From a bacterium (lineage in GTDB: Bacteria; SAR324; NAC60-12), in the NCBI GenBank assembly GCA_965205865.1, contig CBDBHR010000030.1, positions 1,024,001 to 1,088,000 of the forward strand: a DNA stretch of 64,000 nucleotides, given 5' to 3'. Below, piece by piece: positions 9,386 through 39,800 of the stretch (the first letter of the stretch is position 1; every line of letters begins with the position of its first letter). Position numbers and translations under genes: made by a program. The notes beneath the pieces were generated by a model that worked only from the letters and a program-made list of their open reading frames with translations, was not told the origin of the DNA and made no database searches.

Positions 9386-9555
9386 CCAGACACCTGACGA
9401 TGCGTGTTTTCCCCGTCAAATCTTTCCGCAATCAGCTTAAGCTTGATTAGCCCGTGATGTTAGAGCATAATTTATTACTAAAGTTGCCAATTGCGTGAAC
9501 CACCTCGCAAACTCTGTTATTTTACGGACTGAAATCGAACCAATTGGAATTTGAA

Positions 9556-11218: not shown

Positions 11219-11505
11219 GATAATTCTGCCGTTCTTGTCGTGGTAGCCGTCGCAGGCGAAGGAAGAGGGCTACGAAGTAGTCGGTCGTAAAGTCGATCAG
11301 GTTGGTTTAACCGCCAAAGTGCTGGAGTTGGGTCAGGATTTCAAATTCGTCGGTTTCGTGAGTATACTTTTTAGCCTCGTTTAAAATTTCTTCTTGGACA
11401 ACCTCTATATCAAAATACTCCGACTCAACGCCATATTCACGGTAGAGGCTCGAGGATACTTTCTCATAGCATTCAGGTTCGCCACGGTAGATGTAATCGA
11501 TGTCG
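11120..11505 (-). pseudogene. FRG-domain gene remnant, paralogous to the 5' part of 27020-29705
   Basis: Nucleotide similarity to ~29270-29610 (YIYRGEPECYEKVSSSLYREY...LQHFGG*TNLIDFTTDY) with a stop and frameshift. Confidence 0.8.
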
Positions 11506-12847: not shown

Positions 12848-13075
12848 CTATCCCCCCAATATGGTTGCGAGGTCTGGTGGCAGTTTGATCCCGTTTTTCT
12901 GCTCGAAGTCTTTCACGCTTTCGTAGTCGTTATGAAAGGCGGTGATGATGTCCAACCCTCTCTCGCTGGCAGCAGTCAGATCGGACCTTGCTTTTTCCCA
13001 TTCTTTCAGATGTAAGCAGGCCTTGCCACGATTGTTATAAACCATGGTATAGTTTGGGTTCAGTGCTATAGCCTT
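12848..13075 (-). pseudogene. Orphan last TPR plus conserved C-terminal cap
   Basis: YNNRG...HLKEWEKARSDLTAA...FHNDYESVKDFEQKNGIKLPPDL, shared with 27020 and 32950. Confidence 0.75.
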
Positions 13076-14247: not shown

Positions 14248-14266
14248 GGTCTTCCTCTTCCGGTTT

Positions 14267-15472: not shown

Positions 15473-15477
15473 GGCGA

Positions 15478-21392: not shown

Positions 21393-21530
21393 CTATCCCC
21401 CCAACATGGCTGCGATGTCTGGTGGCAGTTTGACCCCGTTTTTCTGCTCGAAGTCTGCCACGCTTTTGTAGTCGTTATGAAATGCGGCGACGATATCCAC
21501 CCCCTTGCCTTTACAGTAGTTAGATCTGAA
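21393..21530 (-). pseudogene. Orphan conserved C-terminal cap of the TPR proteins
   Basis: GVDIVAAFHNDYKSVADFEQKNGVKLPPDIAAMLGG*. Confidence 0.7.
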
Positions 21531-21558: not shown

Positions 21559-23058
21559 TTACAAAGTTTCAAAGAAATGCTGAATGTATTGTATGATAAC
21601 AGGATTGCGTAACCAAGGATTTTGTAACTCAAAAATTCTCCGGTTCGTCCAACTTTCCCACGATGTTTCCATTTGTCCGCGTGTGACATTTAAGCTGGTC
21701 CATAGTTCTTCGATCTCTGTCTGATCTCGAAGCATTGAGATTGCACGCATGCTTATGTCTTCTCCTTCGTAAATAAAAACTAATGGGACATTAGGAAACC
21801 AATGGGCGTTTGTACTCAACATTTCTTGCTTACCAGAAGCAATTATCGCCGCTAATTCGTGAATGTGAAGCGCTACATAATATGCAACCAGTGAAGATCG
21901 GTATTCCAAGTCATCCGTAAATATTTCAGATAACCATTCCCATCTTTCATAAGCGGAAATTATATATTTCCAACTTTCACCAGAATTTTCACCGAGTGAT
22001 TTACATACGCCCATCAGTCTATACTCTTCCCATATATCACAGAATACAGCATCGTTATAGGGTGAAGGAACTTTCACTTTCGCAAGTGCCAGGGCCAGGT
22101 TTATTTGCTTCGTACTGAGACTCAAAGCACCGTGCAGACTATGGTACACGTATCCAAGAGCGTTGGGAATATCAATCCAGACAATGTAACCACTGCGATT
22201 CCATTCAGCAATGTTGAGCAGGTCATCAAGCAAAGACTTTTGATCTTTGAATTGGTCTCTGCCGGATTCGACCCCCGCTAGTGCCACGGCAATCAGGGGC
22301 GAGACAATATCAACCGCTTTATCCACTACCTGAACCAAATCTTTTTTTTCTGGGAGTTGTTCCTCTAATTCATTTTGCCGCCATTGTACAAAAGATTTGA
22401 AGATACCTGGCCGAATGCGTTTGAGGAGTTGTCGCCACCCAAGTACATCTGCGGCACGGGCTAAATCAATTGCTGTTGAGTATGCTTGCGTCACGGATTC
22501 GACCCGATCCGGGATTTCAGGGGGTTGAGTTTCTGATCTCGTAAAAGGCGGTGCTTCTTCCCCGGAAGGAAGTCTGGCAAATGGACTTTTGCCCAGATTC
22601 GGTTTCTGTACCATTGGCACTTGGTGGAGTTCATGGAGCAATACTTTGAATTTTTCATCGAATTGACTCTCATCTGTAAAGTCGATATAAATTCGTGTTC
22701 CGAAAAATACTGGCACTTTTTCTTTTCCTGAAGCCTGACGAACTATAGGAATAAACTTGTTGGTTCCCAAGTCCTGAACAAGCTGCGCCGTCACAATGAG
22801 CCTTTCATATCCGACTCCACCTTCGCCGGCGCTCGCCTTTCTCACGTAACTGTCCGTACAGATGACCAAAACCCTGCCGGAATCCTTGACGCCAGCGTCG
22901 ATGAATCGAGTCATATCATCTCCCGGGTGGAGGTCCCACTGGTCAAGTATAACGTCAATGCCGTTGTTACGCAGTTTTGCGCCAAGTTCTGATACCCATT
23001 GTTTATGCGTTGGTGAGTCGTGAGAATATGAAATAAACACTTTGGGATATTCTGTCAC
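21559..23058 (-). CDS. SEFIR/TIR-domain protein with unrecognised helical C-terminal domain
   Basis: PKVFISYSHDS, GIDVILDQWDL, GGVGYE; first ~160 aa highly similar to 31419-32708. Confidence 0.88.
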   Translation of the reverse strand: MTEYPKVFISYSHDSPTHKQWVSELGAKLRNNGIDVILDQWDLHPGDDMTRFIDAGVKDSGRVLVICTDSYVRKASAGEGGVGYERLIVTAQLVQDLGTNKFIPIVRQASGKEKVPVFFGTRIYIDFTDESQFDEKFKVLLHELHQVPMVQKPNLGKSPFARLPSGEEAPPFTRSETQPPEIPDRVESVTQAYSTAIDLARAADVLGWRQLLKRIRPGIFKSFVQWRQNELEEQLPEKKDLVQVVDKAVDIVSPLIAVALAGVESGRDQFKDQKSLLDDLLNIAEWNRSGYIVWIDIPNALGYVYHSLHGALSLSTKQINLALALAKVKVPSPYNDAVFCDIWEEYRLMGVCKSLGENSGESWKYIISAYERWEWLSEIFTDDLEYRSSLVAYYVALHIHELAAIIASGKQEMLSTNAHWFPNVPLVFIYEGEDISMRAISMLRDQTEIEELWTSLNVTRGQMETSWESWTNRRIFELQNPWLRNPVIIQYIQHFFETL

Positions 23059-23315
23059 TTTTTATCTCCGGTTTCGAAAGGAACGAGTCATAACACCAGT
23101 CTCTTCATGGTATGTTGCAGATAGATATTTCTCTCTTGGATTTTAACCGATCGAGGGTAGATCCTCAAGGGAATGTCCCAATCGATATAAAGAGAACAAC
23201 AGTCGGCTATCTATGAGATTGACACTCTGAATGTTGATTGCTATATTTTGGATTGTTACTCACTATAGTGGTCGGGCGATAATTTTTGGAACAGTTTGAC
23301 ATCAGGAGACCTAAA

Positions 23316-23573
23316 ATGGCTGAAAAGGAAAAAAACAAAGAGAGTCGTTCTTTTAAGCTCAAAGTGAATGGCATTGAAATCGACGTTTCGTGTCAGAAAC
23401 TCATTGCGAAAGACATTTTGAAACTCGCAGAAGAAAAAGGAGCTATCCCCGGTAAAGCGGAAGATTATATCTTGCAGGGAGACAAAGGACAGTATAAAGA
23501 CGATGACTTGGTCGATCTGGAGGAAGACAACCTATTCATTACGATTCCCGACAAACCCACCCCGATAGCGTAG
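23316..23573 (+). CDS. Ubiquitin-like (multi-ubiquitin-type beta-grasp) protein
   Basis: FKLKVNG...L.AKDILKLA...DYIL...DDLVDL...FIT pattern; RBS aggag at 23304; first gene of an E2/E1 operon. Confidence 0.75.
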   Translation: MAEKEKNKESRSFKLKVNGIEIDVSCQKLIAKDILKLAEEKGAIPGKAEDYILQGDKGQYKDDDLVDLEEDNLFITIPDKPTPIA

Positions 23574-23585
23574 CCTTTTCTTAAG

Positions 23586-23960
23586 ATGTCCAACAGTATC
23601 GAACAGGTAATAGCCGAATTGGAAGCCTTGGGGCATGAGACCTCGCTGTTTGATAGCCCACAAGGAAAAGCGGTTTCCTTCGACTACACCGTCGAGACAG
23701 GTCCCTACAAAGGTAAACAAGTCAGGCTGGGCATCAGCTTCCAGGGAAGCGAACGTTATCCCGAATATCCCCCCCACTGGATTCATGTATCTCCGCCAAT
23801 TGACGATGGCAGAGGCGGCGTGGTCGAAAAATACGACGTAAACGGGCGCGAATGGCTCGCAATGAGCAGACCTCCTGGGGAAATATGGGACCGGCTACCG
23901 ACAAAGCACATGGCTGCTTACCTGAACGAACATTTACGACGAATCTGGAAAAACGTATGA
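23586..23960 (+). CDS. Prokaryotic E2-like protein without cysteine
   Basis: Y.VETGPYKG..VRLG...YPEYPPHWIHV...WLAMSR...W; stop overlaps the next ATG (ATGA). Confidence 0.7.
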   Translation: MSNSIEQVIAELEALGHETSLFDSPQGKAVSFDYTVETGPYKGKQVRLGISFQGSERYPEYPPHWIHVSPPIDDGRGGVVEKYDVNGREWLAMSRPPGEIWDRLPTKHMAAYLNEHLRRIWKNV

Positions 23961-25412: not shown

Positions 25413-26868
25413 TCAAGATTTTCTATAAGGTATCGAGGACATCTTGATTTCTGGACCAAGCAATCCTGCCTTTTGAAGCAAGATTTTGAGGCAATTGCGA
25501 ACATTATTGGGATCAGGCACACGTGGACCTAGTGTGATCAAGCTATCTGAGTCTAATATCTCTTTAACTCGGAGAGCCTCGTCCTCGTAGTAGTGTCTTA
25601 TGCGAGTAGGTATATTGCTTTGGCCCTTGTAGTCAATAAAGATCCTGTCTTTATCAGTATCTGATTCTGGAATAACAAAACGGCATTCGTTTTCATACTG
25701 GTACGCTTTATCCTTAAACAAATATCGGATCTTTTCCAAGTATCCTACAATTCTCCCTACCAATTTTTCTTGAACATCTATAATTGGTTGTCCGCTAATG
25801 CTTACCAACGGATTCAAAGTTTCATATAAAGTATCCAAGACAGACTTCGATGGCTAAAAAAGTAGTGTCTTATGCGAGTAGGTATATTGCTTTGGCCCTT
25901 GTAGTCAATAAAGATCCTGTCTTTATCAGTATCTGATTCTGGAATAACAAAACGGCATTCGTTTTCATACTGGTACGCTTTATAGCCTTAAACAAATATC
26001 GGATCTTTTCCAAGTATCCTACAATTCTCCCTACCAATTTTTCTTGAACATCTATAATTGGTTGTCCGCTAATGCTTACCAACGGATTCAAAGTTTCATA
26101 TAAAGTATCCAAGACAGACTTAAGAAGCTGATCAGTACGCTTCACCTCATCAGTGCCATATAGGACTCTCAGCAATCGATTACCCGGGACGCTTAGCTTT
26201 AAAGAGCAACCTTCGCCATCTTTTCCGTAGGCACACCAATACACGAGGTCGTCGCTCACATCCCTTTCAATATCGGGACATGGAGCAATGAATGAGGTGA
26301 TATAAGCATGAGGCGCGTTTCTTGCTTTCAACAATTCATGTTCTTTCACGAGGTTCAGATTCCGGTTAAAATATATACCTTCATCCGGGTCGTTGAAATG
26401 GACGGAATCATACAATCTTAAAGAAGCGCTTCGTCCTTCCACAGAATCTACCAAGTTCATTAAGAGAGAGTTCAACTCGTCATAGAATCCCAATTTAGCA
26501 GTCCGTCTTTCCATCAAAGCGTTTCTATGTACTGGTTCATCATAGTACTCTTCGAATAATTTTCGCAACGATTCGATCCGTCTTTCCACTGAAGCATTCT
26601 GAAGCATGGATATGAGTGTATCGAGACTCGTATAGTGAATGACAGAAACCTTTTTCCTGCTTTCATGTTCCTCGAACCTGTGACGATTTTCGATTTTGTA
26701 GAGCAAGTTTTTCAACACCTCATCCAGCGCTGGAAAAACAATTTCGGTTACATACAACATACCTTGTTCAGGATTTCTTTCTAAGTATTCAGGATTTTTC
26801 TTAAAGTGTTGCAGACCTGCTGTTACTTGCGCTTTTAACTTTTCCATTTTCTCATCTGTATTGCTCAC
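25413..26868 (-). pseudogene. DUF2971-family gene split by a ~260-bp tandem duplication and a frameshift
   Basis: HYTS, FNDPDEG, ITSF, DDLVYWCAYG, FKDKAYQYENECR; 25589-25847 repeated at 25861-26120. Confidence 0.8.
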
Positions 26869-27019: not shown

Positions 27020-29705
27020 TCATACCTGCTGTCTCGTCAACATGGCCGCAAGGTCTGGCGGCAGTGTGATCCCATTTTTCTGTTCGAAGTCTTTCACGCT
27101 TTCGTAGTCGTTTTGAAATGAAGCGATGATGTCCACCCCCCTTTCTCTGGCAGCAGTCAGATCGGATCTGGCTTTTTCCCATTCTTGCAGATGTAACCAG
27201 GCCTCGCCACGATTGTGATAAGCCTTGCCATCATCCGGTTTCAGTTCTATGGCATTGTCAAAGTCCAAGATGGCATGCTCATAATCACCTTTTCGGTAGT
27301 AAGTAACTCCGCGATTGTAATAAGCTTCAGTATCATCTGGATTTAGTTCTATGGCCTTGTCACAGTCTGCGATGGCACGGTCAAACTCTCCTTTATGGCC
27401 GTAAGCAGTGCCACGATATTTATAAGCTTCAGCATCACCCGGATTTAGTTCTATGGCCTTGTCACAGTCTGCGATGGCACGGTCATGCTTTCCTTTACAA
27501 ATATAAGCAGTGCCACGATATTTATAAGCTTCAGCATAGTCTGGTTTCAGTTCTATGGCCTTGTCAAAGTCCAAAATGGCACAGTAATGCTCGCCTTTAT
27601 GGCCGTAAGCAAGGCCACGCTAATATCCTTAACTCTCTGTTGTAATAAGCTATAGCATCATCGGGGTTCAGTTCTGTGACCTTGTTATAGTCTGCAATGG
27701 CACGGGCAGATTCACCTGTTTTGCTGTAAGCATTTCCACGATTCTTATAAGCATTGTCAAAGTTTGGATTTAGTGCTATGGCCTTGTCAAAATCCACAAT
27801 GGCACAGTCATGCTCGCCATTACGATTGTAAGTGATACCGCGGCTGTAATAAGCTTCAGAATCATCTGGTTTCAGTTCTATGGCTTTGTTAAAGTTTGCG
27901 ATTGCATGGGTATACTCTCCTTTATAGTCGTAAGCATATCCACGATTCTTATAAGCTTCAGAATCATCTGGTTTCAGTGTTATGGCCTTGTCAAAGTCAA
28001 CAATGGCACAGCCATGCTCTCTTTTATGGCCGAAAGCAAGGCCACGGTTGTAGTAAGCCTTGGCAAAGTTTGGTCTCCGCGCAACTGCCTTATAATAATC
28101 CTGAATTGCATTGTCATACTCGCCTATATTGCTATAAGCATTGCCACGATTGTTATAAGCCTCGGCAAAGTCTGGTTTTAGTTCTATGGCCTTGTTAAAG
28201 TCTGCAATAGCAGGGGCAGACTTCCCTGTCTTGTTGTAAGCACTGCCTCGGTTGTTATAAGCTTCGGCATAGTCTGGTTTCAGTTCTATCGTCTTGTTAA
28301 AGTCTAGAATTGCACGGTCATGCTCGCCTTTACGGTCGTAAACAAGACCACGATTGAAATAAGCCACGGTATATTCTGGGTTCAGTGCTATGGCCTTGTT
28401 ATAGTCTACGATGGCACGGTCGTGCTCGCCTTTACGGCCGTAAGCAAGACCACGGCTGTAGTAGCCGGCTGCATCATTCGGGTTTAGTGCTATAGCCTTG
28501 TTATAGTCTGCGATTGCACGGTCATACTCGCCTTTATCGAAGTAAGTAGCACCACGATTTATATAGGCTTCGGCAAAATTCGGGTTCAATTCTATGGTCT
28601 TGCTATAGTCTGCGATAGCACGGGCAGACTCGTCTGTATTCTTGTAAGCAAGACCACGGTTGTAGTAGCCGGCCGCATCATTTGGGTTTAGTGCTATAGC
28701 CTTGTTATAGTCTGCGATAGCACGGTCATACTCCCATTTATCAAAGTAAGCATTGCCACGGCTATAGTAACAGGCTGCATCATTTGAGTCCAGTTCTATA
28801 GCTTTGTTCAAGTCCTTGATGGCACGGGCAGACTCACCAGTATTGTTGTAAGCAACACCACGATTCATATAAGGTAAGGCAAAGTCTGGTCGCATTGCTA
28901 TGGCCTTGGTACAGTCTTGAATGCTATGGTCATACTCGCCTGTTTTGCCATAAACACCACCACGATTCGTATAAGCCTCGACAAAATCTGGTTTCAGAGT
29001 TATGGCCTCAGTGTAATGACATATAGCTTTGTCGTGATCTCCTTTGTCTTGGCAGGTCAACCCTTTATAAAACTCCATATTGGCACTCCGGTGTATGTCG
29101 CGATGTTTGATGAATCCCTGAAGGTCGTTGTAGATGGTTGCGGTAGACAAACCATGGTACTTTTGCAGGTGCTCCAAGATAGGTTGTTTGAGGTCTTTCG
29201 GGATAGAGATTACATCGTCTGGTTCAAGAAAACCCTGCGGTGGTCGCACGAAGAGGCTCTTTTGGGCGATTACGCGATTTCTGGGATTCAGAGGATGATT
29301 GATGTGTTTTTCTACCGGTTCCCTTTTTTGCAAGATAATCCTTCCGTCTCTGTCCTGGGAGCCGTCGCAGGCGAAGAAAAGGGCTATGAGGTAGTCGGTC
29401 GTAAAGTCGATCAGGTTGGTTTTTCCGCCAAAGTGTTGCAGTTCGGTCAGGATTTCAAATTCGTCGTTTTCGTGAGTATACTTTTTAGCCTCTTTCAGAA
29501 TTTCCCTTTGGACAGCCTCTATATCAAAATGCTCTGACTCAACGCCATATTCACGGTAGAGGCTCGAGGAGACTTTCTCGTAGCATTCTGGTTCGCCGCG
29601 GTAAATGCAGTCACCGTCGGCTGATTTTTCCGCAATCTCGTGGATTATTTCCAAAACCTCGCTGAGTGAGTCGCTTTGAGTATTGGATGTGTCTGGTGCG
29701 TTCAT
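27020..29705 (-). CDS. FRG domain + long TPR array + C-terminal cap, interrupted by a 19-bp insertion at 27620-27638
   Basis: YRGE, LQHFGGKTNLIDFT...ALFFAC, RVIAQKSLFV; many 34-aa TPRs; removing ctaatatccttaactctct joins both ORFs into 888 aa. Confidence 0.88.
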
Positions 29706-29783
29706 GATTTGTCCTCCATCTTGGTAAGTCCTTGACTGTCTGAGTTGTGGGTTGTCACAGACAAATTATACAGAAATCAAACA

Positions 29784-31328
29784 TCATTGAACATCATTCC
29801 TTGTCGGTTCTTTTGACATAGCTTTTTTGTATTCGACAATCCATTTTTCGGCTTCCTCCCTGGTATATGCCCCGGTATTATCGTGGTTATTTTCTGGTAG
29901 ATTATTGCTTATCGGCTTGCCAATATGTGGTTCCAACTTCTTTCGCAATTCCCTCGCTTTTTCATCGGACAATTCTTCGACGATGGAGTCGAGTTCTTTA
30001 TTCGTTAATCCACCCGCGAAAATTACTGTGGATAGGTCACTCTGCTGGTCGATTGATTGTCTCATAATTTTTTCAAACTCAACGTATTGATACAATTGAC
30101 ATCTAACCCCTTGCAATTGGGTCCCAATTAGATTAGCTTCTTGTAACTGTGCCACGCTAAGAATAGCCCCTTGTAACTTTGCCAGAGTGAGATCAACCCC
30201 TTGTAATTGTGTCCCCATCATTTCTGCCCCGTACAATATTGCACCGTAAAGGGAAGCCCCGTGCAACTTTGCACTGTTAAGTGTAGCCCCATGCAATTGT
30301 GCCTTGTAAAGAATAGCCCCTTGCAGGTGAGTGTTAGTCAAATTAACCTCATGAAGGTGCGCACCGAACAAAATAACCTCTTGTAACTGCGCTTCTATAA
30401 GAACAGTCTTTTGTAAGCTCGCTCGGGTCAGATTGGCCTTTCTCAATCGAGCTCCTCTGAGATTGGCTCCGTTGAGCCAGCTTTCCTGCAAGTTGATAGG
30501 AAGACCTTCGAAAACGTCATGATCCTGCACGAAAAGGAGGGTCAACAGGCTTTGCATTTCTTGGGAGGGTTTCGACTGGTGGGTATTGCGATACTTGTCA
30601 TCGCCCGTCGTGCGGCGAATATGGGCGCATAAAATGTCCAAGACGGTTTGACGCAAATCCGGGGTGTCCTGTGCCAGATGAAAGCGCTCGTCGGCGCCGT
30701 CCGAACTGCGCATCCTTTGGAGAGCTTCCTTCTTAGTGTCTTGCGCCAGATGAAAGAGTTCATAGGCACCCCCCAGGCGCACGGAATCCGAGTCGTTTCC
30801 CAGGTGCTCGATGGCATTTTTAAGGCGTTCCTGTCGCAGCCCCTTTTCGGTGTTCTGAACTGTGCCTTCCATCGCATTGGCTCGTCTGTAGGACATCAAG
30901 GCTTGCAGAGCGACCAACACGCCACCCATACCGATTCCGAGAAATGTGAGGATTTCGTTTTTTTGCTTTCGCTCGGTTAAGCCTAAAAGCGTACCAATAT
31001 ACTCTTCAACAGTCTTGGAAAACATGACGGACACGAAACCCACCAGCAGCAAAACAAGGAGACCGATAATACTGACCATCAAGGTTGAAGAAGAAAAAAA
31101 GCGCCGAAAGATCAAAGAGAGATTCCTCGAAAATTTCCGGACAGTGTGACGAAACCAATGGTAACTACGACGAATCCGAGATTGGGTTTCAAAGACACCG
31201 ATAAGAAAAATTTTAGAAAATTTCATCACATATTTCCGGATAGTGTGATGAAATCGATGGTAAACACGGTGCATCCAAGATCGGATTTTAAGGTATGAAG
31301 GTATCTTGCTTTTGGAATTCTCTGTCAT
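29784..31328 (-). CDS. 2TM pentapeptide-repeat protein (copy A)
   Basis: Two hydrophobic helices, ERLKNAIEHLG...RLGGAYEL, A(N/Q)LxG pentapeptide repeats. Confidence 0.87.
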   Translation of the reverse strand: MTENSKSKIPSYLKIRSWMHRVYHRFHHTIRKYVMKFSKIFLIGVFETQSRIRRSYHWFRHTVRKFSRNLSLIFRRFFSSSTLMVSIIGLLVLLLVGFVSVMFSKTVEEYIGTLLGLTERKQKNEILTFLGIGMGGVLVALQALMSYRRANAMEGTVQNTEKGLRQERLKNAIEHLGNDSDSVRLGGAYELFHLAQDTKKEALQRMRSSDGADERFHLAQDTPDLRQTVLDILCAHIRRTTGDDKYRNTHQSKPSQEMQSLLTLLFVQDHDVFEGLPINLQESWLNGANLRGARLRKANLTRASLQKTVLIEAQLQEVILFGAHLHEVNLTNTHLQGAILYKAQLHGATLNSAKLHGASLYGAILYGAEMMGTQLQGVDLTLAKLQGAILSVAQLQEANLIGTQLQGVRCQLYQYVEFEKIMRQSIDQQSDLSTVIFAGGLTNKELDSIVEELSDEKARELRKKLEPHIGKPISNNLPENNHDNTGAYTREEAEKWIVEYKKAMSKEPTRNDVQ

Positions 31329-31418
31329 CTTTTATTTTCCGTTTTGATAGGATGGTGCGCCTCGTTTACTTTGAAATATTCTTCGACAATTTATCTTAGA
31401 TCCTACAGTAACGAGCAA

Positions 31419-32708
31419 TCACTCAGTGAGGTGACAGATTCCATCGAATTGGATGATATAGGGCTCAACATTTGAATATTGCTTACGACGCTGTCCTTTG
31501 AATTTGACCCGCAACTTCTTTGATTTCAGAAGTATCAAATCTAATTTGAGTATATCTTCACACGTATTTGAAAGTTGCAAATAGAGCACGGATACCAATC
31601 GGACGAATTTTTGGAATCTTTCCGTCTCTCTTCCATAGGATCGATAGAGATCCGGGATTGGAGATTCGGAAAATTGGAGGATATTTTCATATTGTGATGA
31701 AGTACGACCAAGAATTTGATTCTCTAGCAGTTGATTGTATACATTGATTGTATAAGGATTAGTGGTTTCCGGCTTTTCATTAAGAAGAATCCTTTTTGCA
31801 CGTATTTCAGCAATCTCATCTGGTGAAATGCCGGCTAACCCTATCTCCTTGGATAGACCGAAGTTTTGCCTTCCACTATCTTCCTTCAGAACGACTTCCC
31901 AAACGGTTTGAGAACCGGACATGGTTTGAGTCACCTCCTGTGGACTGACCCACGCTGCATCTTCCTCTAATGCAAAAGCAAAATTAGGACGAGCAAACCT
32001 GTTAATATTATCAATCCTCAATGAACGAAGAAAGGCAGTCTGTTCGCCCGATTCAGGAAGAAGTTCCAAAAAAATTTCCTTTGGACCCCAATTTGCACTT
32101 TGCATGGGGACAAAATACTGCGCCCCATCTTTTGGCCATAGCAACACAAATTCGCCGGGGTCTTTCTCAACTTTGGCAGAAGTCAATGTATCAGTTGTTT
32201 TTATCTGCGATGTCGGCTCTGGTTTGGAAAATGGATTTTTGCCCAACGGAGGTTTCTGTACCTTGGGTACCCGGTGGAGTTCATGGAGCAGATCTGTAAA
32301 TTTTTCATCGAATTGAGTATCATCCGTAAAGTCGATATGCACTCGTGTTCCTAGAAATGTGGGCACTTTTTCTTTTCCTGAAGCCTGACGAATTATGGGA
32401 ATGAACTTGTTGGTTCCCAAGTTCTGAACAAGCTGCGCCGTCACAATGAGCCTTTCGTAACCGACTCCACCTTCGCCGGCGTTTGCCTTTCTCACGTAAC
32501 TGTCCGTACAGATGACCAATACCCTGTCGGAACTCTTGACGCCAGCTTCCATGAATCGTGTCATATCATCACCCAGGCTGAGGTCCCACTGGTCGAGTAT
32601 AACGTCAATGCCTTTGTGACGCAGTTTTGTGCCAAGTTCCGATACCCATTGTTTATGCTCTGGAGAATCGTGAGAATATGAAATAAATACCTTGGGATGT
32701 TCCGTCAT
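31419..32708 (-). CDS. SEFIR/TIR-domain protein with a second, different C-terminal domain
   Basis: N-terminus paralogous to 21559-23058; no visible similarity after GKNPF. Confidence 0.88.
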   Translation of the reverse strand: MTEHPKVFISYSHDSPEHKQWVSELGTKLRHKGIDVILDQWDLSLGDDMTRFMEAGVKSSDRVLVICTDSYVRKANAGEGGVGYERLIVTAQLVQNLGTNKFIPIIRQASGKEKVPTFLGTRVHIDFTDDTQFDEKFTDLLHELHRVPKVQKPPLGKNPFSKPEPTSQIKTTDTLTSAKVEKDPGEFVLLWPKDGAQYFVPMQSANWGPKEIFLELLPESGEQTAFLRSLRIDNINRFARPNFAFALEEDAAWVSPQEVTQTMSGSQTVWEVVLKEDSGRQNFGLSKEIGLAGISPDEIAEIRAKRILLNEKPETTNPYTINVYNQLLENQILGRTSSQYENILQFSESPIPDLYRSYGRETERFQKFVRLVSVLYLQLSNTCEDILKLDLILLKSKKLRVKFKGQRRKQYSNVEPYIIQFDGICHLTE

Positions 32709-32949
32709 AATTCATCACCTGTTTTGATAGGAACGAGCCAGAATATCAATATCTTCATAACGTGTTGCAGACAAGATTTTTCTCCTGGATATTAACCGAT
32801 TGAGGATAGACCCTCAAGGGGATGAACTAATATTGAATCATCAAATCATAGAGGAATTACGCTGCAACGGGGATTCAATCGATTAGCAGGTTATCACTCG
32901 GGTTGCTCTTTGGATGACGGTTCAGTGCTGCCTGGAGATTCGTAGCAAT

Positions 32950-33975
32950 TCATGCCTGCTGTGGGGTTAGCATGCCTGCGAGGTCTTGCGGCAGAGTGAT
33001 GCCATTTTTCTGCTCGAAGTCCGCCACGCTTTCGTAGTCGTTATGAAATGAAGCGATAATGTCCACCCCCCTTTCTTTGGCAGCAGTCAAATCGGACCGG
33101 GCTTTTTCCCATTCTTTCAAATGTAACCAAGCCTCGCCACGCCCGCAGTATGCCGGTGTATCATATTGGCTAAGAACTATGGCCTTATTATAGTCTTGAA
33201 TAGCGTTATCAAAATCGCCTTTACGGAGGTATGCAGTGCCACGATTGTTATAGCAGACTGCAACATTCGGGTTCAGTTCTATGGACTGTGAGTAATGGCA
33301 TATAGCTTTATCGTGAATTCCTTTGTTTTGATGGGTCAACCCTTTGTAAAACTCCATAGAGGCACTCTGGTGGATACATTGTATGACTTTGGAGTAAGCT
33401 TCAATCGCCTTATCTATTTGCCCTATCATTACCAGGAAGTCACCCTGTTGTTGCATCAAATCAGCCTGTGGTCCTGGTTGGTATGGAGGCGGAGGAGAAA
33501 GTTGTTGCGGTGTATCCGGCAAGGTCGAGGGGAGAGTTTGAGATTGCATCATGTCAACCTCTCTTCGGATACCTAAAACCACGTTTTGCCATCCTCTGCT
33601 CCGGGGTTGCCACTCGTTGATGGGCTTGCCTTTTTCCGGCAAAACCTCGAAGTCCTTGAGTTTATGAATTTTCCAATCGCAATCTTCAAGGATGATGGGA
33701 ATGATTCTTTTATGGAAATCCAGTGCGTCAGCCAGTTCCTTATTGCAGTTCTTAGAAGCAAGACTCTGAGCGGAGACGAGGTAAAGAAGAATATCCGAAT
33801 CGGCAAGGTTTGTGGAAATTGCTTCACGCCATTCATCGCTGGGCAGGATTTCGTTATCGTGCCAAATCTTTATCATTTTATTGCGCTCCATTACAACAAG
33901 GCACTCTCGCAATTTGTCCTTTGCCTTTTTATTCTCATGTGAATAGGTAATGAATATTTTTAATGGTTTGCTCAT
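32950..33975 (-). CDS. TIR domain + short TPR array + C-terminal cap
   Basis: KIFITYSHE, IWHD.EI, LVSAQSLASKNCNKEL, IIPIIL; TPRs; cap shared with 27020. Confidence 0.88.
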   Translation of the reverse strand: MSKPLKIFITYSHENKKAKDKLRECLVVMERNKMIKIWHDNEILPSDEWREAISTNLADSDILLYLVSAQSLASKNCNKELADALDFHKRIIPIILEDCDWKIHKLKDFEVLPEKGKPINEWQPRSRGWQNVVLGIRREVDMMQSQTLPSTLPDTPQQLSPPPPYQPGPQADLMQQQGDFLVMIGQIDKAIEAYSKVIQCIHQSASMEFYKGLTHQNKGIHDKAICHYSQSIELNPNVAVCYNNRGTAYLRKGDFDNAIQDYNKAIVLSQYDTPAYCGRGEAWLHLKEWEKARSDLTAAKERGVDIIASFHNDYESVADFEQKNGITLPQDLAGMLTPQQA

Positions 33976-34103
33976 TCTTTTTCCTCAACAATAATAATTT
34001 CTTCTTCAAGCAAGGACTCTTACCCCCCAACGCTTACGGCTCATCCCAGGAGATGCAATGGTCTTCGTTTCGTGTCAGGTGGTGCGGGGTCGACATGGCT
34101 TCA

Positions 34104-35447
34104 TTATCCGTAAGAGGTTGGGACCTCTGACATGACTTCTTCGTATTCGGCAATCCATTCTTCAGCTTCTTTCTTGGTGTAGGCTCCGGTAATAGCGCCG
34201 CTGTTTGCTGGCAGTCCACGGCAGAACGGCTTGTCTATATGCGGTCTCAGACTCTCTCGCAGTATCTTTGCTTTTTCATCGGACAAACCTTCTTCGAGGG
34301 CATCTGCAGCTCGCTGGCATATACCTCTAGACGATACTGTCGATAGATCACTTTTTTTATCGATTGAATTTTCGATACGCTCTGCGAAAGGGGTTGAAGA
34401 TGACCAATCTTGATTTCCTGCCCCTTTCAGGTTCGCTTTACTAAGAACAGCACCTTGCATTTGCGTATAAGAAAGTTTTGCTCCCTGCAATCGTGCCTCC
34501 GAAAGAAACACCGCTTGCATACGAACACTATCGAGAACGGTACCTTGCAGATGTGCGTCGTGAAGATACGCTGCTTGCAAATGCGCTCCCCTGAGATTCG
34601 CTCCTTGTAGTCGTGCGTGAGGAAGATACGCCTCTTGCATGTGCGCCGAGATGAGTTTAGCACCTTGCAGGTTTGCCTGTTCAAGAACAGTTTCTTCCAA
34701 GTGTGCCTCGACAAGATTTGCTTCTTGCAGGTGCGCCCTGTCAAGTCTAGCCCCTCGCAAGTTTGCTTGTTTCAAAATGGCCTTCTGCAAACGCGCATTC
34801 TGGAGATCAGCTCCGTTCAGCCAGCTATTCTGCAAGTTGATAGGGAGACCTTTGAAAACGTCATGATCCTGCACGAAAAGCAGGGTCAGCAGGCTTTGCA
34901 CTTCTTCGGAGGGATTCCACTGGTGGGTTTTGCGATATTCGTCTTCGCCCGTCGTGCGGCGAATATGGGCGCATAAAATGTCCAATACGGTTTGGCGCAA
35001 ATCCGGGGTGTCCTGCGCAAGATGAAAGCGCTCGTCGGCGCCACCCGAACTGCGCATCCATTGGAGAGCTTCCTTCTTGGTGTCATGTGCCAGATGAAAG
35101 AGTTCATAGGCACCCCCCAGGCGCACGGAATCCGAGTCGTTTCCCAGGTGCTCGATGGCATTTTTCAGGCGTTCCTGTCGCAGCCCCTTTTCGGTGTTCT
35201 GGTTCGCTATTACCTGCTGCTTTGCTGTGTCTTCCATCGCCTTGGCGCGAATGTAGGACATCAAGGCTTGCAGCGTAACCAGCACGCCACCCATACCGAT
35301 TCCGAGAAATGTCAGGATTTCGTTTTTTTCGGACAAGCCTAAAAACGTACCAACCCACTTTTCAACGGTCTCTGATGGCATGACTGACACGAAACATAAC
35401 AACAACAAACCAAGGACGCAGATAAGAAATATTGTAAAAAATTTCAT
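34104..35447 (-). CDS. 2TM pentapeptide-repeat protein (copy B); probable start 35447
   Basis: Core nearly identical to 29784-31328; pentapeptide region diverged. Confidence 0.85.
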   Translation of the reverse strand: MKFFTIFLICVLGLLLLCFVSVMPSETVEKWVGTFLGLSEKNEILTFLGIGMGGVLVTLQALMSYIRAKAMEDTAKQQVIANQNTEKGLRQERLKNAIEHLGNDSDSVRLGGAYELFHLAHDTKKEALQWMRSSGGADERFHLAQDTPDLRQTVLDILCAHIRRTTGEDEYRKTHQWNPSEEVQSLLTLLFVQDHDVFKGLPINLQNSWLNGADLQNARLQKAILKQANLRGARLDRAHLQEANLVEAHLEETVLEQANLQGAKLISAHMQEAYLPHARLQGANLRGAHLQAAYLHDAHLQGTVLDSVRMQAVFLSEARLQGAKLSYTQMQGAVLSKANLKGAGNQDWSSSTPFAERIENSIDKKSDLSTVSSRGICQRAADALEEGLSDEKAKILRESLRPHIDKPFCRGLPANSGAITGAYTKKEAEEWIAEYEEVMSEVPTSYG

Positions 35448-35602: not shown

Positions 35603-36769
35603 TCAATTGGATAACAGCATTATTGTCAGGACATCGGTATTTGCTTTGTATTTTCTTCCATGCTTCACCAAAAGATCCAAGGAAACTAATTCTCTTAAAT
35701 CTCGTAATAGAGTCACCTTTCTCAAAGTTGCGTAATTTCTGGCAATTACTGGAGTGAGTAAAGGTATTTCATCAACAGAAAATTCCCTGTTTAAAGGAAA
35801 TTCCAAGATCAGGTCTCGTTTTCTTGTAAAAGCCGATCGTTTTGTAAATTGGATGCCCGCAAATTTTTCGTAGATGAAGTTACTCCAGAAAACCTGAATC
35901 TGTTTTTCTTGGATCGATTTCAGATTTTCCATCAGTCCATCGTAAAAGCCATCAACCGCATAATTGATAAAATCACTCAAATCGTTTTTCTTGCGAGCAT
36001 TTTCCAACTGCCGGTAGTATTCAGATCTGGTATTGTTATAAAAATTAGAGAGAACGTGCGAAGCAATACCGGGAACTCCTGCACGCAACAAAATATAAAA
36101 CTCCAGCAAACGACCCGTTCTGCCATTGCCATCATCAAAGGGATGAATCCACTCTATATAGACGTGAGTGACGATGGCTTGAATGAATGCGTCACTGAAT
36201 GTCTGCCCTTTCTCATGATGAAATTCTATTCTGATCCAATCACAAAGCTTTTCAACCAACTCGGCAACATGTTGATGCTGCGGAGGTAAATAGCCCCCCA
36301 CAACACGTAAATCTTCTCTGAATCTTCGAGGAATGGCATCAAAATGTTTTCCCAAATTTCTGCCAACCATTTCATGAAAATCCATAATCAGGCGGGGAGT
36401 AATGAGCGGCGATTTCTTTTGCGTAACAACTTCATAAAGCAACCTGTTGAATGCATCGAGGATATTTTTGACTTCAACAGCCAAATACTTTCTACTTTCA
36501 GGGACTTCCCATCCCTCGTTCAATTGCGCAATCTCTTGCTCACTCAAAGTGTTGCCTTCAATCGCTGTCGTTGCCTGCGCCCCCTTGATGAGCGAAACAG
36601 TCAGTAGTTGTCTACGATCTTCCGGCAGAAGTGGAAGCTTCGTAAATACTGTGGAAAGTGCTGAACACTGTCCCAACTTATGAGCGCATGCGACTGTAAT
36701 TTCCCATCTTTTTTGAAATGATATATGTTTGTAATCATCCATAATTGTCTCCTTTTTATTGTCCTTCAT
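35603..36769 (-). CDS. Fic-family protein
   Basis: HPFDDGNGRTGR, TTAIEGNTL, probable C-terminal wHTH. Confidence 0.93.
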   Translation of the reverse strand: MKDNKKETIMDDYKHISFQKRWEITVACAHKLGQCSALSTVFTKLPLLPEDRRQLLTVSLIKGAQATTAIEGNTLSEQEIAQLNEGWEVPESRKYLAVEVKNILDAFNRLLYEVVTQKKSPLITPRLIMDFHEMVGRNLGKHFDAIPRRFREDLRVVGGYLPPQHQHVAELVEKLCDWIRIEFHHEKGQTFSDAFIQAIVTHVYIEWIHPFDDGNGRTGRLLEFYILLRAGVPGIASHVLSNFYNNTRSEYYRQLENARKKNDLSDFINYAVDGFYDGLMENLKSIQEKQIQVFWSNFIYEKFAGIQFTKRSAFTRKRDLILEFPLNREFSVDEIPLLTPVIARNYATLRKVTLLRDLRELVSLDLLVKHGRKYKANTDVLTIMLLSN

Positions 36770-36896: not shown

Positions 36897-39800
36897 TCAG
36901 GAACGAGCCACCATGCAGATCTCCTCCGGGGTGAGCTCGTACAATTGATAGACGAGTTGGTCAATCTCTGCTTCAAGGGCGGATATATTGGCCTTCGGGT
37001 TCGCAGTTTTGACGACACTGATTTGATCGACCCTTTGCTCTATCTGAGTGGTAAGATATTGGTTAGCTGTCGTTACCGGTGGAATTGGAATGTGCTCAAA
37101 GTATACTTTGCTCAATTCTCTCGTTCCGCCTTGCAATTCCGGACAGTTTTCACGAATCCATTTAGCTGAGATCGCAGAGTTAAAATATCCTACAAGATAT
37201 TTTATATGAGTTTCACCTGTGATAATAAAGCATTTCTGATTTGTATAAAATCCCTCCTGATCATAAACAAATGGCAAAAATTTAGTCATATTGGGATAGA
37301 TGATCTTTTCTTTTTCAAACTCAGGATAATAAGCAATTTGATCCTGAGTCTCGAACCATGTGTTGCCTGTCTTCTTACGAGATTTAGAGCCATCCGCGAG
37401 TGTTTTGCCAGCTTGTTCCAATCTTTCCCTGTCGAATGAAAGCAGGTGTCGTTTTATTGCTGGGTAGTCGTCTATATCGATTCCCAATGCCGGGAAAGTT
37501 GCAATCAACCATAGTCCCGCCCAGTTGACTTGATAGCGTCCAATATCCCGCCCGCGTAAAACGGGTTTGATCAGTTCCGCCGACTTGGGATCTTCAAGAA
37601 TTAGTCGTTCCTTCGTCTGATTGTCAATAATGAAAGCGTCAGAGAGAGTTATAACCGGTTACTATCCCCCGATTGATTGATATATCCCATTCTTTCAGTG
37701 GCTTACCGACACATTCAATTTTTTGCTTGAGGGCCAGTTCGGCAGGTGAGAGTATCGTCCATGGTTCGCCTTTACCGGGCAGGGTCATGGTTACGCCGTG
37801 TTTGCTCAGATAACGGGCCATATCGCCGTTCGTCTTGTTCAAGTCACCGCGTACCGTAACGCCTCTGAAAGGCGCACCGGCGGGTTTGACGTTACGCAAA
37901 AGCAGGATGCTGGTGTCCACGGTGGCTTCAAACACGTCCGGTCCCATGTCGAGCAATTGCACGGGTTGAGTGCGCACAGTAAAATAATCTCTCAAATTCT
38001 TGCCATAGGCGGCACGCATCCATTTGTTGGAGGTGATAAAACAAACGTGTCCGCCTTCTTTCAACAGTTTCAACGCTCTTTCGTAGAACAAACAATATAT
38101 GTCCCCCGTCCTGGTGAAGCTGTCAAATTGGCAGGCTTGATACAATCGTCCCAACCTCCCGCCGTCTTTTTGCAATTGCACGTACGGCGGATTGCCGACT
38201 ACCCCGTCAAAACCGTCCGAGATGCCAAACATATACCCGGCTTCAAACCAGTCGGCTTTCTCGTTTGGATCGTAAGGGTCCCATTGCGCGATTGCGCCGG
38301 CATCGTCGTCGGAAAGGACGACGGTTCTCAATTTTTCCGCTAATGTTTTACGAATCTTTTTATCCTGGTCCCGGCATGCCAGCTTTTTCTGGCGAGTGGT
38401 CGCGTGAAAATGCCGTTCGCGGTTCTCCGCCAATTTCGCTTTCAGCATCTCAATTTCTTTACTGAAATAGTAGGGTGATTCCGTCGCCTTGAGACTGATC
38501 AGCGTGTCCGCCGCCACAAAACGCGTCTCCAGATTGGGTAGGGGTTTGATACCAAAATTGCTGGAGACGTCCCCGGTCGGCGTCTGCTCAATGGCCAGCG
38601 AGATGAAAAAGCGCAGTTTGGCGATCTGGCAGGCGATGGGTTGGATGTCCACGCCGAAGATGCTGTTTTGAATGAGGTACAACTTGCGGCCGAAGTCCCC
38701 CGAATAATTTTCAAAGGTTTCGCTGATTCCCAGCAGTTCCGCATCGCGTTCCTGCTGGTCTTTCGTACCGAATGCCGTTTCCGTCTTCTGCATGGCCTTT
38801 TCTTTTTGCAATTTTTTCCAGCGTTCGTTGTTTCCGTCGAGCCTCTGCAAGGCAAGGGTCAGTTTGTGCAGCACGCCCATGGGGAAGGCGCCGGAACCGA
38901 CTGCCGGGTCCAACACCTTCAGTCTGGCAATGGCGCGGACAATGTTTTCGGTTTCGTTTTCGTCGAACCATTCTCCTGCATCATCGAAATCCCTGGCATA
39001 ATCCAGCAGGTAACGCAATCTTTCCTTCCAGAATTCATGATCGCCGTCCGTTGGATAGAATTGTTTCACAAGCGCCGCCACCAGAGTCTCCTCCACCATG
39101 TAATTGACGATTTCGCGGGGCGTATAGAAGGACCCGGTCTGCTTGCGGGCCGTTTCACCGGTTTCGGGGTTGTAGGAGGCAAGCAGATTCTCGAATACCT
39201 GTCCCAGCAATTCGGGGTCCAGCGCCACTTCCTGGTCCACAGGGCGTGCTTTCCTCAACGCAGTAAACTGGTACTGTTGAAACAGGTCGATCAACCCCGT
39301 TTCGTCTTCACTCTTTGCGGAAGAACATGTCGTTGGGCACGCGCAACATGTTGTCCGCCCGGTCGGAAAAGCCGTCGATGCGGATGGCTTTGTTTTCATT
39401 ACGTTGGTGAGCTTGTTCCTGTTCTTCCGAGGTAGCCTCCCGGTCCAGGCATTCAAACAAGCCACCGTTCAGAAAGGGAATCCTCGCAAACAAGTCAATG
39501 ATTGACTGCTCTTCACTCGCCTTGAAATGATCTCGATAGCGATACCTGTTGGTGACCAGGTAGTTGTTGCTGTAGGGGCTGCTCCTGCTTACGGTACGGA
39601 AACCGCGGTCTTCGATTTCCTGGTTGAGGGTGGCGAGAAGAGGTTTTGCAGAATGGCCTTGTAGTAGCTGCCGTCCTTATCCCAGTGAATCAACGTCCTT
39701 ACTTTTTCTTCATCAAACAGGTCGGCATTGACCAGCTGTTTTTCCTTGATGAACCAGACGAAGAGCAGGCGGGTGAGCATGCGGATCAGGCTGGTGGATT

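What the first reader, a model, noticed from the sequence alone, without database searches (positions are those of the whole stretch)
27020..35447. Repeated module: 2TM-pentapeptide protein followed by effector-TPR-cap, with the effector swapped (TIR vs FRG)
Seen: in transcription order, pentapeptide B precedes TIR-TPR-cap and pentapeptide A precedes FRG-TPR-cap. The two TPR proteins become homologous at a sharp junction (IHQSASMEFYKGLTHQNKG vs IHRSANMEFYKGLTCQDKG), differ greatly in TPR number, and share a ~55-aa cap plus similar 3' flanking DNA. A SEFIR gene lies downstream of each. Known: bacterial TIRs are often NADases, and FRG has been proposed to be ADP-ribosyltransferase-like. Inference: a possibly undescribed defence or host-interaction module in which a TPR sensor scaffold carries interchangeable NAD-consuming heads, paired with a membrane partner.
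Basis: partly seen in the sequence, partly recalled or inferred. Interest (0 to 1): 0.75.

Follow-up and report, generated by a model that had tools for sequence, protein, structure and literature searches.

The report
Swappable NADase heads on a TPR-cap scaffold
A defence-gene island holds two diverged copies of a gene block in which a membrane pentapeptide-repeat gene precedes a TPR protein whose enzyme head differs (TIR or FRG); the TPR protein with its conserved tail belongs to an undescribed family found mostly in Poribacteria, and usually has no pentapeptide neighbour.

Summary
Two diverged copies of a block [2TM-pentapeptide gene, then head-TPR-cap gene] lie on the minus strand. One TPR protein has a TIR head and the other an FRG head. 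They become alike at a sharp junction and share an 87%-identical 60-aa cap.

Additions:
- The FRG gene is split in this assembly by a 19-nt insertion. That insertion is missing from the spanning contigs of three other public runs.
- Two orphan caps and an FRG remnant lie nearby.
- The TIR gene is a chimera: a TIR head grafted onto an FRG-type linker and body.

The cap matches no Pfam or NCBIfam model. It marks at least 582 protein clusters. Heads were FRG in 102 and TIR in 18 of 141 N-terminal segments. Of 44 genome loci, 38 are labelled Poribacteria; they sit in defence islands, often as tandem arrays.

The pentapeptide partner is not general. It was found in 1 of 44 cap loci (the sister genome) and in 0 of 5 complete Poribacteria genomes. 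Elsewhere it sits upstream of type III restriction-modification genes.

Verdict: interchangeable NAD-processing heads on a TPR-cap scaffold are supported. An obligate membrane partner is not. This is a new variant of a known kind, of moderate interest.

The parts
34104..35447 (-). PentaB: 2TM protein with a helical N-domain, a pentapeptide beta-helix and a C-terminal helical part (447 aa; the open frame runs up to 35606)
   Evidence: Pfam Pentapeptide, 118 bits against a cut-off of 20.2. Two hydrophobic segments. AF2 model with pLDDT 86. P0226 is the 447-aa form.
32950..33975 (-). TIR-TPR-cap gene (341 aa), intact. TIR head at residues 1-150, head/body junction at residue 201, cap in the last 60 aa (32953-33132)
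   Evidence: TIR_2, 60 bits against a cut-off of 28. ThsB-like PADLOC hit at 2.3e-24. Glu80 kept in 12 of 12 TIR heads that hold that column. AF2 pLDDT of 94-98 over residues 221-340. Chimeric junction shown.
31419..32708 (-). bSEFIR-type gene no. 1 (429 aa)
   Evidence: PADLOC bSEFIR at 7.4e-81, profile positions 35-366 of 412. Pfam SEFIR and TIR_2.
29784..31226 (-). PentaA: paralogue of PentaB (480-aa form; the open frame runs up to 31328)
   Evidence: 61% identical to PentaB. Pfam Pentapeptide, 110 bits. P0238 is the 480-aa form. Two hydrophobic segments.
27020..29705 (-). FRG-TPR-cap gene, read as two ORFs in this assembly (702 aa and 184 aa). Cap at 27023-27202
   Evidence: FRG, 53 bits against a cut-off of 25. 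PDC-S15 hits on the head. 14 whole 34-aa units listed before the break. One open frame of 888 aa if the 19 nt are left out.
27620..27638 (-). 19-nt insertion that shifts the FRG-TPR-cap frame
   Evidence: It lies between the AAC and CGT codons of a TPR unit. It is left out in the one spanning contig of each of runs X1, X2 and X4, from three studies. Depth over 27621-27637 is 0 in all four runs.
21396..21515 (-). Orphan cap remnant (last ~40 aa) just downstream of SEFIR no. 2, followed by a small ORF at 21076-21390
   Evidence: 68% identical to the TIR gene's cap. DNA 84% identical over 100 nt.
12848..13045 (-). Orphan last-TPR-plus-cap ORF (65 aa), followed at once by a truncated copy of the same small ORF (12642-12845)
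   Evidence: 79% identical cap.
11253..11495 (-). FRG-domain remnant with an internal stop
   Evidence: Search of the window's own genome with PF08867: 46 bits, one TAA inside. Alike to the 5' part of the FRG gene in G001.
21559..23058 (-). bSEFIR-type gene no. 2 (499 aa). Its N-domain and about 116 nt upstream are alike to no. 1; its C-half is unrelated
35603..36769 (-). Fic-family gene upstream of PentaB (island context)
   Evidence: Pfam Fic. PADLOC SoFic at 4.6e-57.

Best explanation
The region is part of a recombining anti-phage defence island. A block [2TM-pentapeptide gene | head-TPR-cap gene | SEFIR gene] was duplicated. The conserved pieces are now about 85% identical in DNA, and parts have since been exchanged.

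The unit conserved across genomes is the single protein head-TPR-cap. It has three parts:
- an N-terminal NAD-processing head (FRG of the ART superfamily, or TIR);
- a TPR array of very variable length, which I infer to be the sensor or assembly part;
- a strongly conserved last TPR plus three short helices, the cap, which closes the array.

I infer that the cap is a protein-contact or self-association surface.

The likely action is inferred, not shown. Binding of a phage-derived ligand to the TPR array brings heads together and switches on NAD+ cleavage, which aborts the infection. Heads are swapped by recombination at the linker and in the cap, and this leaves orphan caps behind.

The pentapeptide membrane gene is a separately mobile defence-island gene. 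It travels with head-TPR-cap genes in this lineage, but most of the family does not need it.
For: Shown here:
- Duplicated blocks with unrelated heads.
- The cap family is large: 79 hits and 582 clusters at E<=1e-3. It matches no Pfam or NCBIfam model.
- Heads were FRG in 102 and TIR in 18 of 141 N-terminal segments. Headless members and other heads also occur.
- 20 of 42 loci hold two or more cap genes in tandem on one strand. FRG and TIR types sit together in 6 of them.
- Neighbours in those loci are GmrSD (7 loci), a BsaWI-type endonuclease, DNA methylases, a PLD-SNF2 helicase, and PIN and other addiction-module genes, set between housekeeping genes.
- The window's own neighbours include SoFic, bSEFIR twice, a type IIG restriction-modification gene, an HKD-Snf2 protein and E1-like hits.
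- The TIR gene is a chimera with an FRG-type linker. Its body matches the FRG-type protein P0005.
- TIR Glu80 is conserved in 12 of 12 heads. The YRGE motif is present in the FRG head.
- Some members carry a tail after the cap: TaqI_C or MmeI-type DNA-recognition domain, or DUF4268.
- The cap region is modelled with pLDDT of 94-98.
- The pentapeptide N-domain was found in 1 of 44 cap loci and in 0 of 5 Poribacteria genomes. The same query matched G000 and G001.

From the literature: Frg is described as an ART-superfamily domain, a potential antiviral effector and a possible NADase (passages of PMC9503650).
Against: - No activity, ligand or phage phenotype is known for any member.
- 38 of the 44 loci are labelled Poribacteria. 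By established knowledge these are sponge symbionts, so a niche-specific rather than phage-specific role is possible.
- The scan pattern was narrow (Y[ES]SVxDFEQ), so the taxon spread is a lower bound.
- The pentapeptide gene keeps its place next to both diverged copies and in G001.
- Five contig lengths are shared between close cap relatives and pentapeptide relatives: 2636, 19876, 30031, 312158 and 557885.
- P0082 fuses cap, SEFIR and pentapeptide parts.
- L047 has a pentapeptide-TIR gene 65 nt after a TPR-cap gene.
Taken together, the last four points suggest that the pairing may be functional in one sub-clade.
- Several genes of the island are broken in the assemblies: the FRG gene here and in G001, and the 352-aa gene here.
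Confidence: 0.55

Rival explanations
1. This is a true two- or three-gene system. The 2TM-pentapeptide protein would be the membrane partner (sensor, anchor or effector) of the head-TPR-cap protein, at least in the sub-clade to which this window belongs, perhaps together with the SEFIR gene.
For: - Same order, same strand and short gaps (128 and 78 nt) in both diverged copies and in G001.
- Both families occur only in genus g1 among the relatives searched: cap in 2 of 61 genomes, pentapeptide N-domain in 2 of 61 and 2 of 88.
One is a 2636-nt contig that two genes of 372 and 379 aa would nearly fill.
- P0082 fuses TPR-cap, a SEFIR N-domain and pentapeptide residues 127-496.
- L047 has a pentapeptide-TIR fusion right after a TPR-cap gene.
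Against: - 43 of 44 cap loci lack the pentapeptide N-domain within 10 kb.
- 0 of 5 complete Poribacteria genomes hold it at all.
- The pentapeptide family is much larger (2026 hits). In L051 and L052 it is coupled to type III Mod and Res genes instead.
- G000 and G001 share the arrangement by descent, so they are not independent.
- The contig-length matches are circumstantial, because no DNA could be fetched.
Confidence: 0.3
2. The proteins are host-interaction factors of sponge symbionts. They would be eukaryote-like TPR proteins whose TIR or FRG heads act on the animal host's signalling or NAD pool rather than on phages.
For: - 38 of 44 genome loci are labelled Poribacteria and 2 Dehalococcoidia.
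- Three phyla share a cap that is 45-81% identical.
- TIR and SEFIR are also animal immune-signalling domains (established knowledge).
Against: - No signal peptide or secretion-linked neighbour was seen for the FRG and TIR types. Only 3 of the 19 segments without a known head start with a signal-like hydrophobic stretch.
- The neighbours are restriction, toxin-antitoxin and helicase genes.
- The tails fused after the cap are a DNA-recognition domain and DUF4268.
Confidence: 0.1
3. The copies are decaying debris of a duplicated island and have no present function.
For: - The FRG gene is frameshifted here and split into two frames in G001.
- The 352-aa gene is broken by a 274-nt tandem duplication.
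- Orphan caps, an FRG remnant and truncated SEFIR genes are present.
Against: - TIR-TPR-cap and both pentapeptide genes are intact.
- The 19-nt insertion is missing from the spanning contigs of three other runs.
- The cap is strongly conserved across hundreds of clusters.
Confidence: 0.05

Closest known systems
Thoeris ThsB-type TIR proteins (PADLOC PDLC00420)
   Same: The TIR head matches the ThsB profile (2.3e-24, residues 7-147). It keeps the conserved Glu in the SLAS..C..EL motif; that this Glu is the catalytic residue is recalled, not tested.
   Different: No ThsA-like partner was found. No PADLOC ThsA hit appeared among the 24 proteins scanned, and none of the 5 SIR2_2 matches in the genome lies in the window. 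Here the TIR is fused to a TPR array and the cap.
FRG-domain defence candidates (PADLOC PDC-S15; Frg clade of the ART superfamily)
   Same: The FRG head matches Pfam FRG (53 bits) and 13 PDC-S15 profiles, the best at 3.1e-22. Frg is proposed to be an antiviral effector and a possible NADase (PMC9503650 passages).
   Different: The PDC-S15 matches cover only the head, reaching at most residue 201. The TPR array and cap are not part of those models. No activity has been tested for either.
TPR sensor arrays of bacterial conflict systems (Pfam TPR-S, PF20308; STAND/Avs-type sensors)
   Same: A variable TPR array is attached to an effector. PF20308 is listed for several family members and for P0114.
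   Different: There is no NTPase domain. A family-specific cap follows the last TPR. NCBIfam TPR_END_plus matched only ordinary TPR units (profile positions 1-32 of 56), not the cap.
bSEFIR single-gene defence (PADLOC PDLC03957)
   Same: The two SEFIR genes in the window match it at 7.4e-81 and 4e-72.
   Different: They are neighbours, not parts of the TPR-cap proteins. Gene no. 2 matches only the N-part of the profile (35-250 of 412) and has an unrelated C-half.
Pentapeptide-repeat proteins (Qnr, MfpA, HetL)
   Same: The repeat region matches Pfam Pentapeptide and is modelled as a long beta-helix.
   Different: All NCBIfam equivalog scores are far below their cut-offs, for example HetL at 97.5 against 260. 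This family adds two membrane helices and a conserved helical N-domain. It is found next to restriction-modification genes.

Membership tests
TIR domain (Pfam PF13676 TIR_2) | Profile match above the curated cut-off | tested here: met
   60 bits against 28, residues 7-107.
TIR domain (NADase type) | Conserved glutamate in the helix after the central strand | tested here: met
   Glu80 is present in 12 of 12 TIR heads that hold that column. Its catalytic role is recalled, not tested. phmmer of the head against PDB sequences found nothing.
Thoeris system | A ThsA-type partner (SIR2 or Macro with a sensor domain) next to the TIR gene | tested here: not met
   No ThsA hit among 24 window proteins. 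The 5 SIR2_2 matches in G000 all lie outside the window.
FRG domain (Pfam PF08867) | Profile match above the cut-off, and the [FY]RG motif | tested here: met
   53.1 bits against 25. YRGE is in the sequence.
FRG as an ART-superfamily NADase | NAD+ cleavage or ADP-ribosyl transfer | not testable with these tools
   Only a proposal in PMC9503650 (passages).
PADLOC PDC-S15 | Full-length match to a PDC-S15 profile | tested here: inconclusive
   The best hits cover the head only, for example residues 8-127 on profile positions 6-124 of 286.
Pentapeptide repeat family (PF00805) | Profile match above the cut-off | tested here: met
   118 and 110 bits against 20.2.
Qnr / MfpA / HetL equivalogs | NCBIfam score above the equivalog cut-off | tested here: not met
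   HetL 97.5 against 260, MfpA 43 against 360, Qnr 32 against 240.
bSEFIR (PADLOC PDLC03957) | Near full-length profile match | tested here: met
   Gene no. 1: 7.4e-81, profile positions 35-366 of 412. Gene no. 2 matches only positions 35-250.
   Seen in 1 of 44 cap loci, which is the sister genome, and in 0 of 5 Poribacteria genomes. 0 of 3 pentapeptide metagenome loci hold a cap.
NCBIfam TPR_END_plus (NF047558) | Match of the end-of-group part of the profile to the cap | tested here: not met
   Only profile positions 1-32 of 56 matched, and on internal TPR units.

The most novel reading that the evidence does not exclude
The cap may be a dedicated docking module, a small adaptor comparable in role to the homotypic adaptor domains of other immune systems. 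Through it, NADase-headed TPR proteins would assemble with variable partners: headless TPR-cap paralogues in the Poribacteria-labelled loci, the 2TM-pentapeptide protein in this lineage, and fused DNA-recognition or DUF4268 tails elsewhere. This would make a modular immune family that has spread among phyla, with heads exchanged by recombination at the linker and at the cap.
Probability: 0.2. Interest if true: 0.7.

Novelty: new variant of a known kind. Interest (0 to 1): 0.5.

Why it matters
Effector heads that consume NAD+ and are joined to repeat-array sensors are a known theme in bacterial immunity. This family adds three things. First, it has a strongly conserved C-terminal module that no curated profile covers. 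Second, it offers a clear natural head swap between TIR and FRG on one scaffold, which supports the proposal that FRG and TIR do equivalent jobs. Third, the family is expanded in uncultured lineages, mostly Poribacteria. If a member protects against phage, it would give a compact single-protein model for testing FRG activity and TPR-based sensing.

Tried and rejected
- Complex prediction of PentaB residues 70-447 with TPR-cap residues 165-341 gave no verdict: score 0.00 against a mark of 0.32, and the controls were not run. It says nothing for or against binding.
- Foldseek of the TIR-TPR-cap model against PDB returned only generic TPR proteins such as consensus TPRs and OGT. Nothing was specific to the cap.
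- phmmer of the TIR head against PDB sequences gave 0 hits.
- The first cap alignment (A2, 26 rows) was too diverse for the locus scan. A closer one (A3) was used instead.
- The metagenome scan with the pentapeptide N-domain gave only 3 loci.
- The protein Atlas could not be reached, and then did not hold the sequence.
- The search of earlier findings returned nothing in three look-ups.
- No RNA holder was listed among the public runs.
- Run X6 had no contig across the 19-nt site.
- The promoter and terminator scan gave no more promoter-like sites than shuffled sequence (5 against a mean of 14.8) and nothing clear after the cap.
- No tRNA gene lies in the window.
- I first read the G001 FRG gene as 5'-truncated. 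One search shows that the head is present but split between two frames.
- Paper searches: 'FRG domain' gave 10 papers, of which only PMC9503650 is relevant. 'Poribacteria' with 'FRG' gave 1 irrelevant paper. 'PDC-S15' gave 2 listings, which I did not read. 'Poribacteria, TPR, TIR' gave 4 listings, not read. The four-term search gave only PMC9503650. 'pentapeptide repeat, anti-phage, defense system' gave 11 papers, of which I read one passage of PMC10853773. None describes this architecture. Subscription journals are not covered.


Full report
**What is there.** On the minus strand of the window lie, in transcription order:
- a Fic-family gene (35603-36769; PADLOC SoFic);
- PentaB (34104-35447);
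- a TIR-TPR-cap gene (32950-33975);
- a bSEFIR-type gene (31419-32708);
- PentaA (29784-31226);
- an FRG-TPR-cap gene (27020-29705).

Both pentapeptide proteins have two hydrophobic segments near the N-terminus. The AlphaFold2 model of PentaB has mean pLDDT 86 and pTM 0.70. It shows two membrane-type helices, a helical domain, a long pentapeptide beta-helix and a helical C-terminal part.

- PentaB and PentaA are 61% identical over 430 aa.
- Between the two copies only certain blocks are alike in DNA, each at about 83-86%. These are the pentapeptide N-domain (656 nt), the head/TPR junction (93 nt), the cap with about 22 nt of 3' flank (214 nt), and the SEFIR N-domain with about 116 nt upstream (606 nt).
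- The two TPR proteins have unrelated heads and start to align at residue 201 against residue 204.
- The last 60 residues are 87% identical.
- SEFIR no. 2 does lie downstream of the FRG gene, but 4 kb away. A broken gene and a plus-strand operon of a small ORF, a 124-aa ORF and an E1-like (ThiF) protein lie between them.

**Corrections to the picture.**

The FRG gene is read as two ORFs because 19 nt (27620-27638) sit between the AAC and CGT codons of one TPR unit. Without them the gene is one open frame of 888 aa. I laid the contigs of four public runs on 27400-27900. In the single spanning contig of each of X1, X2 and X4, which come from three studies, the 19 nt are left out. No run has any depth over 27621-27637. 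X6 has no spanning contig. One of these runs may be the source sample, and contigs drop rare variants. So the insertion is either a rare variant or particular to this assembly, and the gene is probably intact in nature.

The genome holds four cap copies, all in this window. Besides the two genes there is a 65-aa orphan (12848-13045) and a 40-aa remnant (21396-21515). Each is followed directly by a copy of a small ORF, which is 166 aa long in the sister genome. An FRG remnant with a stop lies at 11253-11495.

**The sister genome.** G001, of the same genus, has one block in the same order: pentapeptide gene, then FRG-TPR-cap with few TPRs, then an intact 352-aa gene.
- Its FRG head is split between two frames.
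- Its pentapeptide gene is a mosaic: 91% identical to PentaA in the N-domain and 80% identical to PentaB over the full length.
- The 352-aa gene is broken in the window by a 274-nt tandem duplication whose copies are 99% alike.

**The head swap.** In FRG-headed family members the stretch TIYNDLxGFI..IHxSAYTEFY[KR]G is the native end of the head. TIR-headed members from other genomes pass straight from ..QQGNFLxMLGQIDKAIEAYSxAI.LNP into the TPR array. The window's TIR protein, and its 82%-identical relative P0004, carry the TIR-type stretch and then the FRG-type linker (IHQSASMEFYKGL). Their body continues like that of the FRG-headed protein P0005 (KAICHYSQSIELNPNVAVC). The gene is therefore a graft of a TIR head onto an FRG-type body.

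**The cap family.** The cap matches no Pfam or NCBIfam model. NCBIfam TPR_END_plus matched only ordinary TPR units.
- A word-indexed search scoring only the cap found 79 proteins of 187-597 aa among 91 candidates.
- A full HMMER pass over 1.84 billion cluster representatives found 582 at E<=1e-3 and 352 at E<=1e-10.
- I examined 225 of these proteins. Of 141 with an N-terminal segment of at least 60 aa before the first TPR, 102 matched the FRG head, 18 the TIR head and 2 a SEFIR N-domain; 19 matched none of these.
- Those 19 include other TIR types, a 158-aa repeated head, membrane-anchored coiled coils and a DUF1828 protein.
- 33 proteins continue for at least 40 aa after the cap. Eight of these tails match the C-terminal piece of the window's type IIG restriction-modification gene. 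Of the three scanned against Pfam, all (P0114, P0162, P0189) hit TaqI_C and P0114 also MmeI_TRD. P0139's tail is DUF4268. One tail resembles the small ORF that follows the orphan caps.
- In the model of the TIR protein (mean pLDDT 85.7), the cap is the last TPR helix plus three short helices (306-311, 317-324, 330-336). pLDDT is 94-98 over residues 221-340.

**Where the family lives.** A scan of one genome per species gave 44 loci. Of these, 38 are labelled Poribacteria, 2 Dehalococcoidia and 3 'uncultured bacterium', and one is G001. The pattern used was narrow, so this is a lower bound. Among 61 relatives of the window's genome, only G000 and G001 have the cap.

In 20 of 42 loci, two or more cap genes lie in tandem on one strand. 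FRG and TIR types are together in 6 of them, and headless TPR-cap genes often follow an FRG type. Recurrent neighbours fall into two groups:
- housekeeping genes that frame the site (oxidoreductase, sugar-isomerase-like barrel, ABC transporter, aldehyde dehydrogenase, S41 peptidase);
- defence-type genes within it (GmrSD in 7 loci, a BsaWI-type endonuclease, DNA methylases, a PLD-SNF2 helicase, PIN and other addiction-module genes, PD-(D/E)XK nucleases).

**The pentapeptide partner.** Its N-domain family is very large and well conserved: 2026 proteins at E<=0.001 among 3259 candidates, with many nearly invariant residues.

Evidence against a general pairing:
- By tblastn it was found in 1 of the 44 cap loci, and that locus is G001.
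- It was found in 0 of 5 complete Poribacteria genomes that carry cap genes. The same query matched G000 and G001.
- Within the window's phylum it was found in 2 of 88 genomes, which are G000 and G001.
- Of 3 metagenome loci with a relative, none has a cap.
- In the two of those loci that have downstream sequence, the pentapeptide gene abuts a type III Mod gene followed by Res. The two Mod proteins are 81% identical.

Evidence for a narrower pairing:
- Five contig lengths are shared between the lists of close cap relatives and of pentapeptide relatives: 2636, 19876, 30031, 312158 and 557885. The 19876 contig would hold both a PentaA-like and a PentaB-like protein together with the FRG-headed protein P0005.
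- P0082 is an 880-aa protein that joins TPR-cap, a SEFIR N-domain and pentapeptide residues 127-496.
- In the Dehalococcoidia locus L047, a DUF6575-TPR-cap gene is followed after 65 nt by a pentapeptide-TIR fusion.

I could not fetch the contigs behind these pairs.

**How it most likely works.**

Shown: the modular architecture, the head exchange, the defence-island setting, and conservation of the TIR glutamate (12 of 12) and of the FRG motif.

From the literature: Frg belongs to the ART superfamily and was proposed as an antiviral effector and possible NADase (passages of PMC9503650). Pentapeptide repeats occur fused to defence-linked proteins (one passage of PMC10853773).

Inferred: the TPR array senses a phage product or drives assembly. 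The cap is a conserved contact surface. Activation clusters the heads and cleaves NAD+, which aborts the infection. The pentapeptide protein is an accessory, or an independent defence-island gene, in this lineage.

**Verdict.** The family-level idea of interchangeable NAD-processing heads on a TPR-cap scaffold is supported and appears undescribed in the open literature that I could search. The obligate membrane partner is not supported.

Noticed in passing
window 25413-26868 (-), tandem repeat 25589-26121: This homologue of G001's intact 352-aa gene has no Pfam match. Here it is broken by a 274-nt tandem duplication whose copies are 99% alike. It lies directly downstream of the FRG-TPR-cap gene in both genomes.
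   Followed up: partly
window 23286-25390 (+): A plus-strand gene set of a 95-aa ORF, a 124-aa ORF and a 512-aa protein with a ThiF (E1-like) domain. The last matches PADLOC E1-E2 profiles. The set lies between the FRG block and SEFIR no. 2 and is conserved in G001.
   Followed up: partly
window 36897-40425 (-) and 40504-41201: A type IIG restriction-modification gene is present as three ORFs (278, 608 and 203 aa). A 63-nt tandem repeat of 10.8 copies follows it, next to a 1200-aa HKD-Snf2 gene (41102-44704).
   Followed up: partly
proteins P0114, P0156, P0162, P0173, P0186, P0189: In these proteins head-TPR-cap is fused in frame to a tail of about 350 aa. The tails match the C-terminal piece of the window's type IIG gene. 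The three scanned (P0114, P0162, P0189) hit Pfam TaqI_C, with TPR-only, FRG and TIR heads respectively. P0003 joins a type IIG N-terminal piece to TPR-cap.
   Followed up: partly
L051:187-3297 and L052:9962-15410: In two metagenome contigs a 2TM-pentapeptide homologue directly abuts a type III Mod gene (513 aa; the two Mod proteins are 81% identical) followed by Res. L052 also holds a Schlafen AlbA_2 / HATPase_c_4 gene like the one at window 14267-15766.
   Followed up: partly
L047:8870-11505: In this Dehalococcoidia locus a DUF6575-TPR-cap gene is followed after 65 nt by a protein of pentapeptide repeats fused to a TIR domain.
   Followed up: partly
window 12642-12845 and 21076-21390 (-); L006:5951-6451: A small ORF with no Pfam match (166 aa in G001) directly follows both orphan caps. 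A distant relative of it is fused after a cap in P0110.
   Followed up: partly
window 27400-27900, table 5: Contigs of other runs show 'goes back' and 'skips' joints inside the TPR array. This may mean differences in repeat number between populations, or mis-joins by the short-read assembler.
   Followed up: no
window 9544-11218 (+), 13240-15766 (-), 20000-20395 (+): Further defence-type genes in the island: an N6_N4 methylase with an EcoO109I endonuclease, a ParA-like ATPase with a Schlafen AlbA_2 / HATPase_c_4 protein, and a stand-alone TIR protein.
   Followed up: partly
window 2120-4015 and 16324-18219 (-): Two ORFs of the same length (631 aa) lie 14 kb apart and may be another duplication. 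I did not compare them.
   Followed up: no
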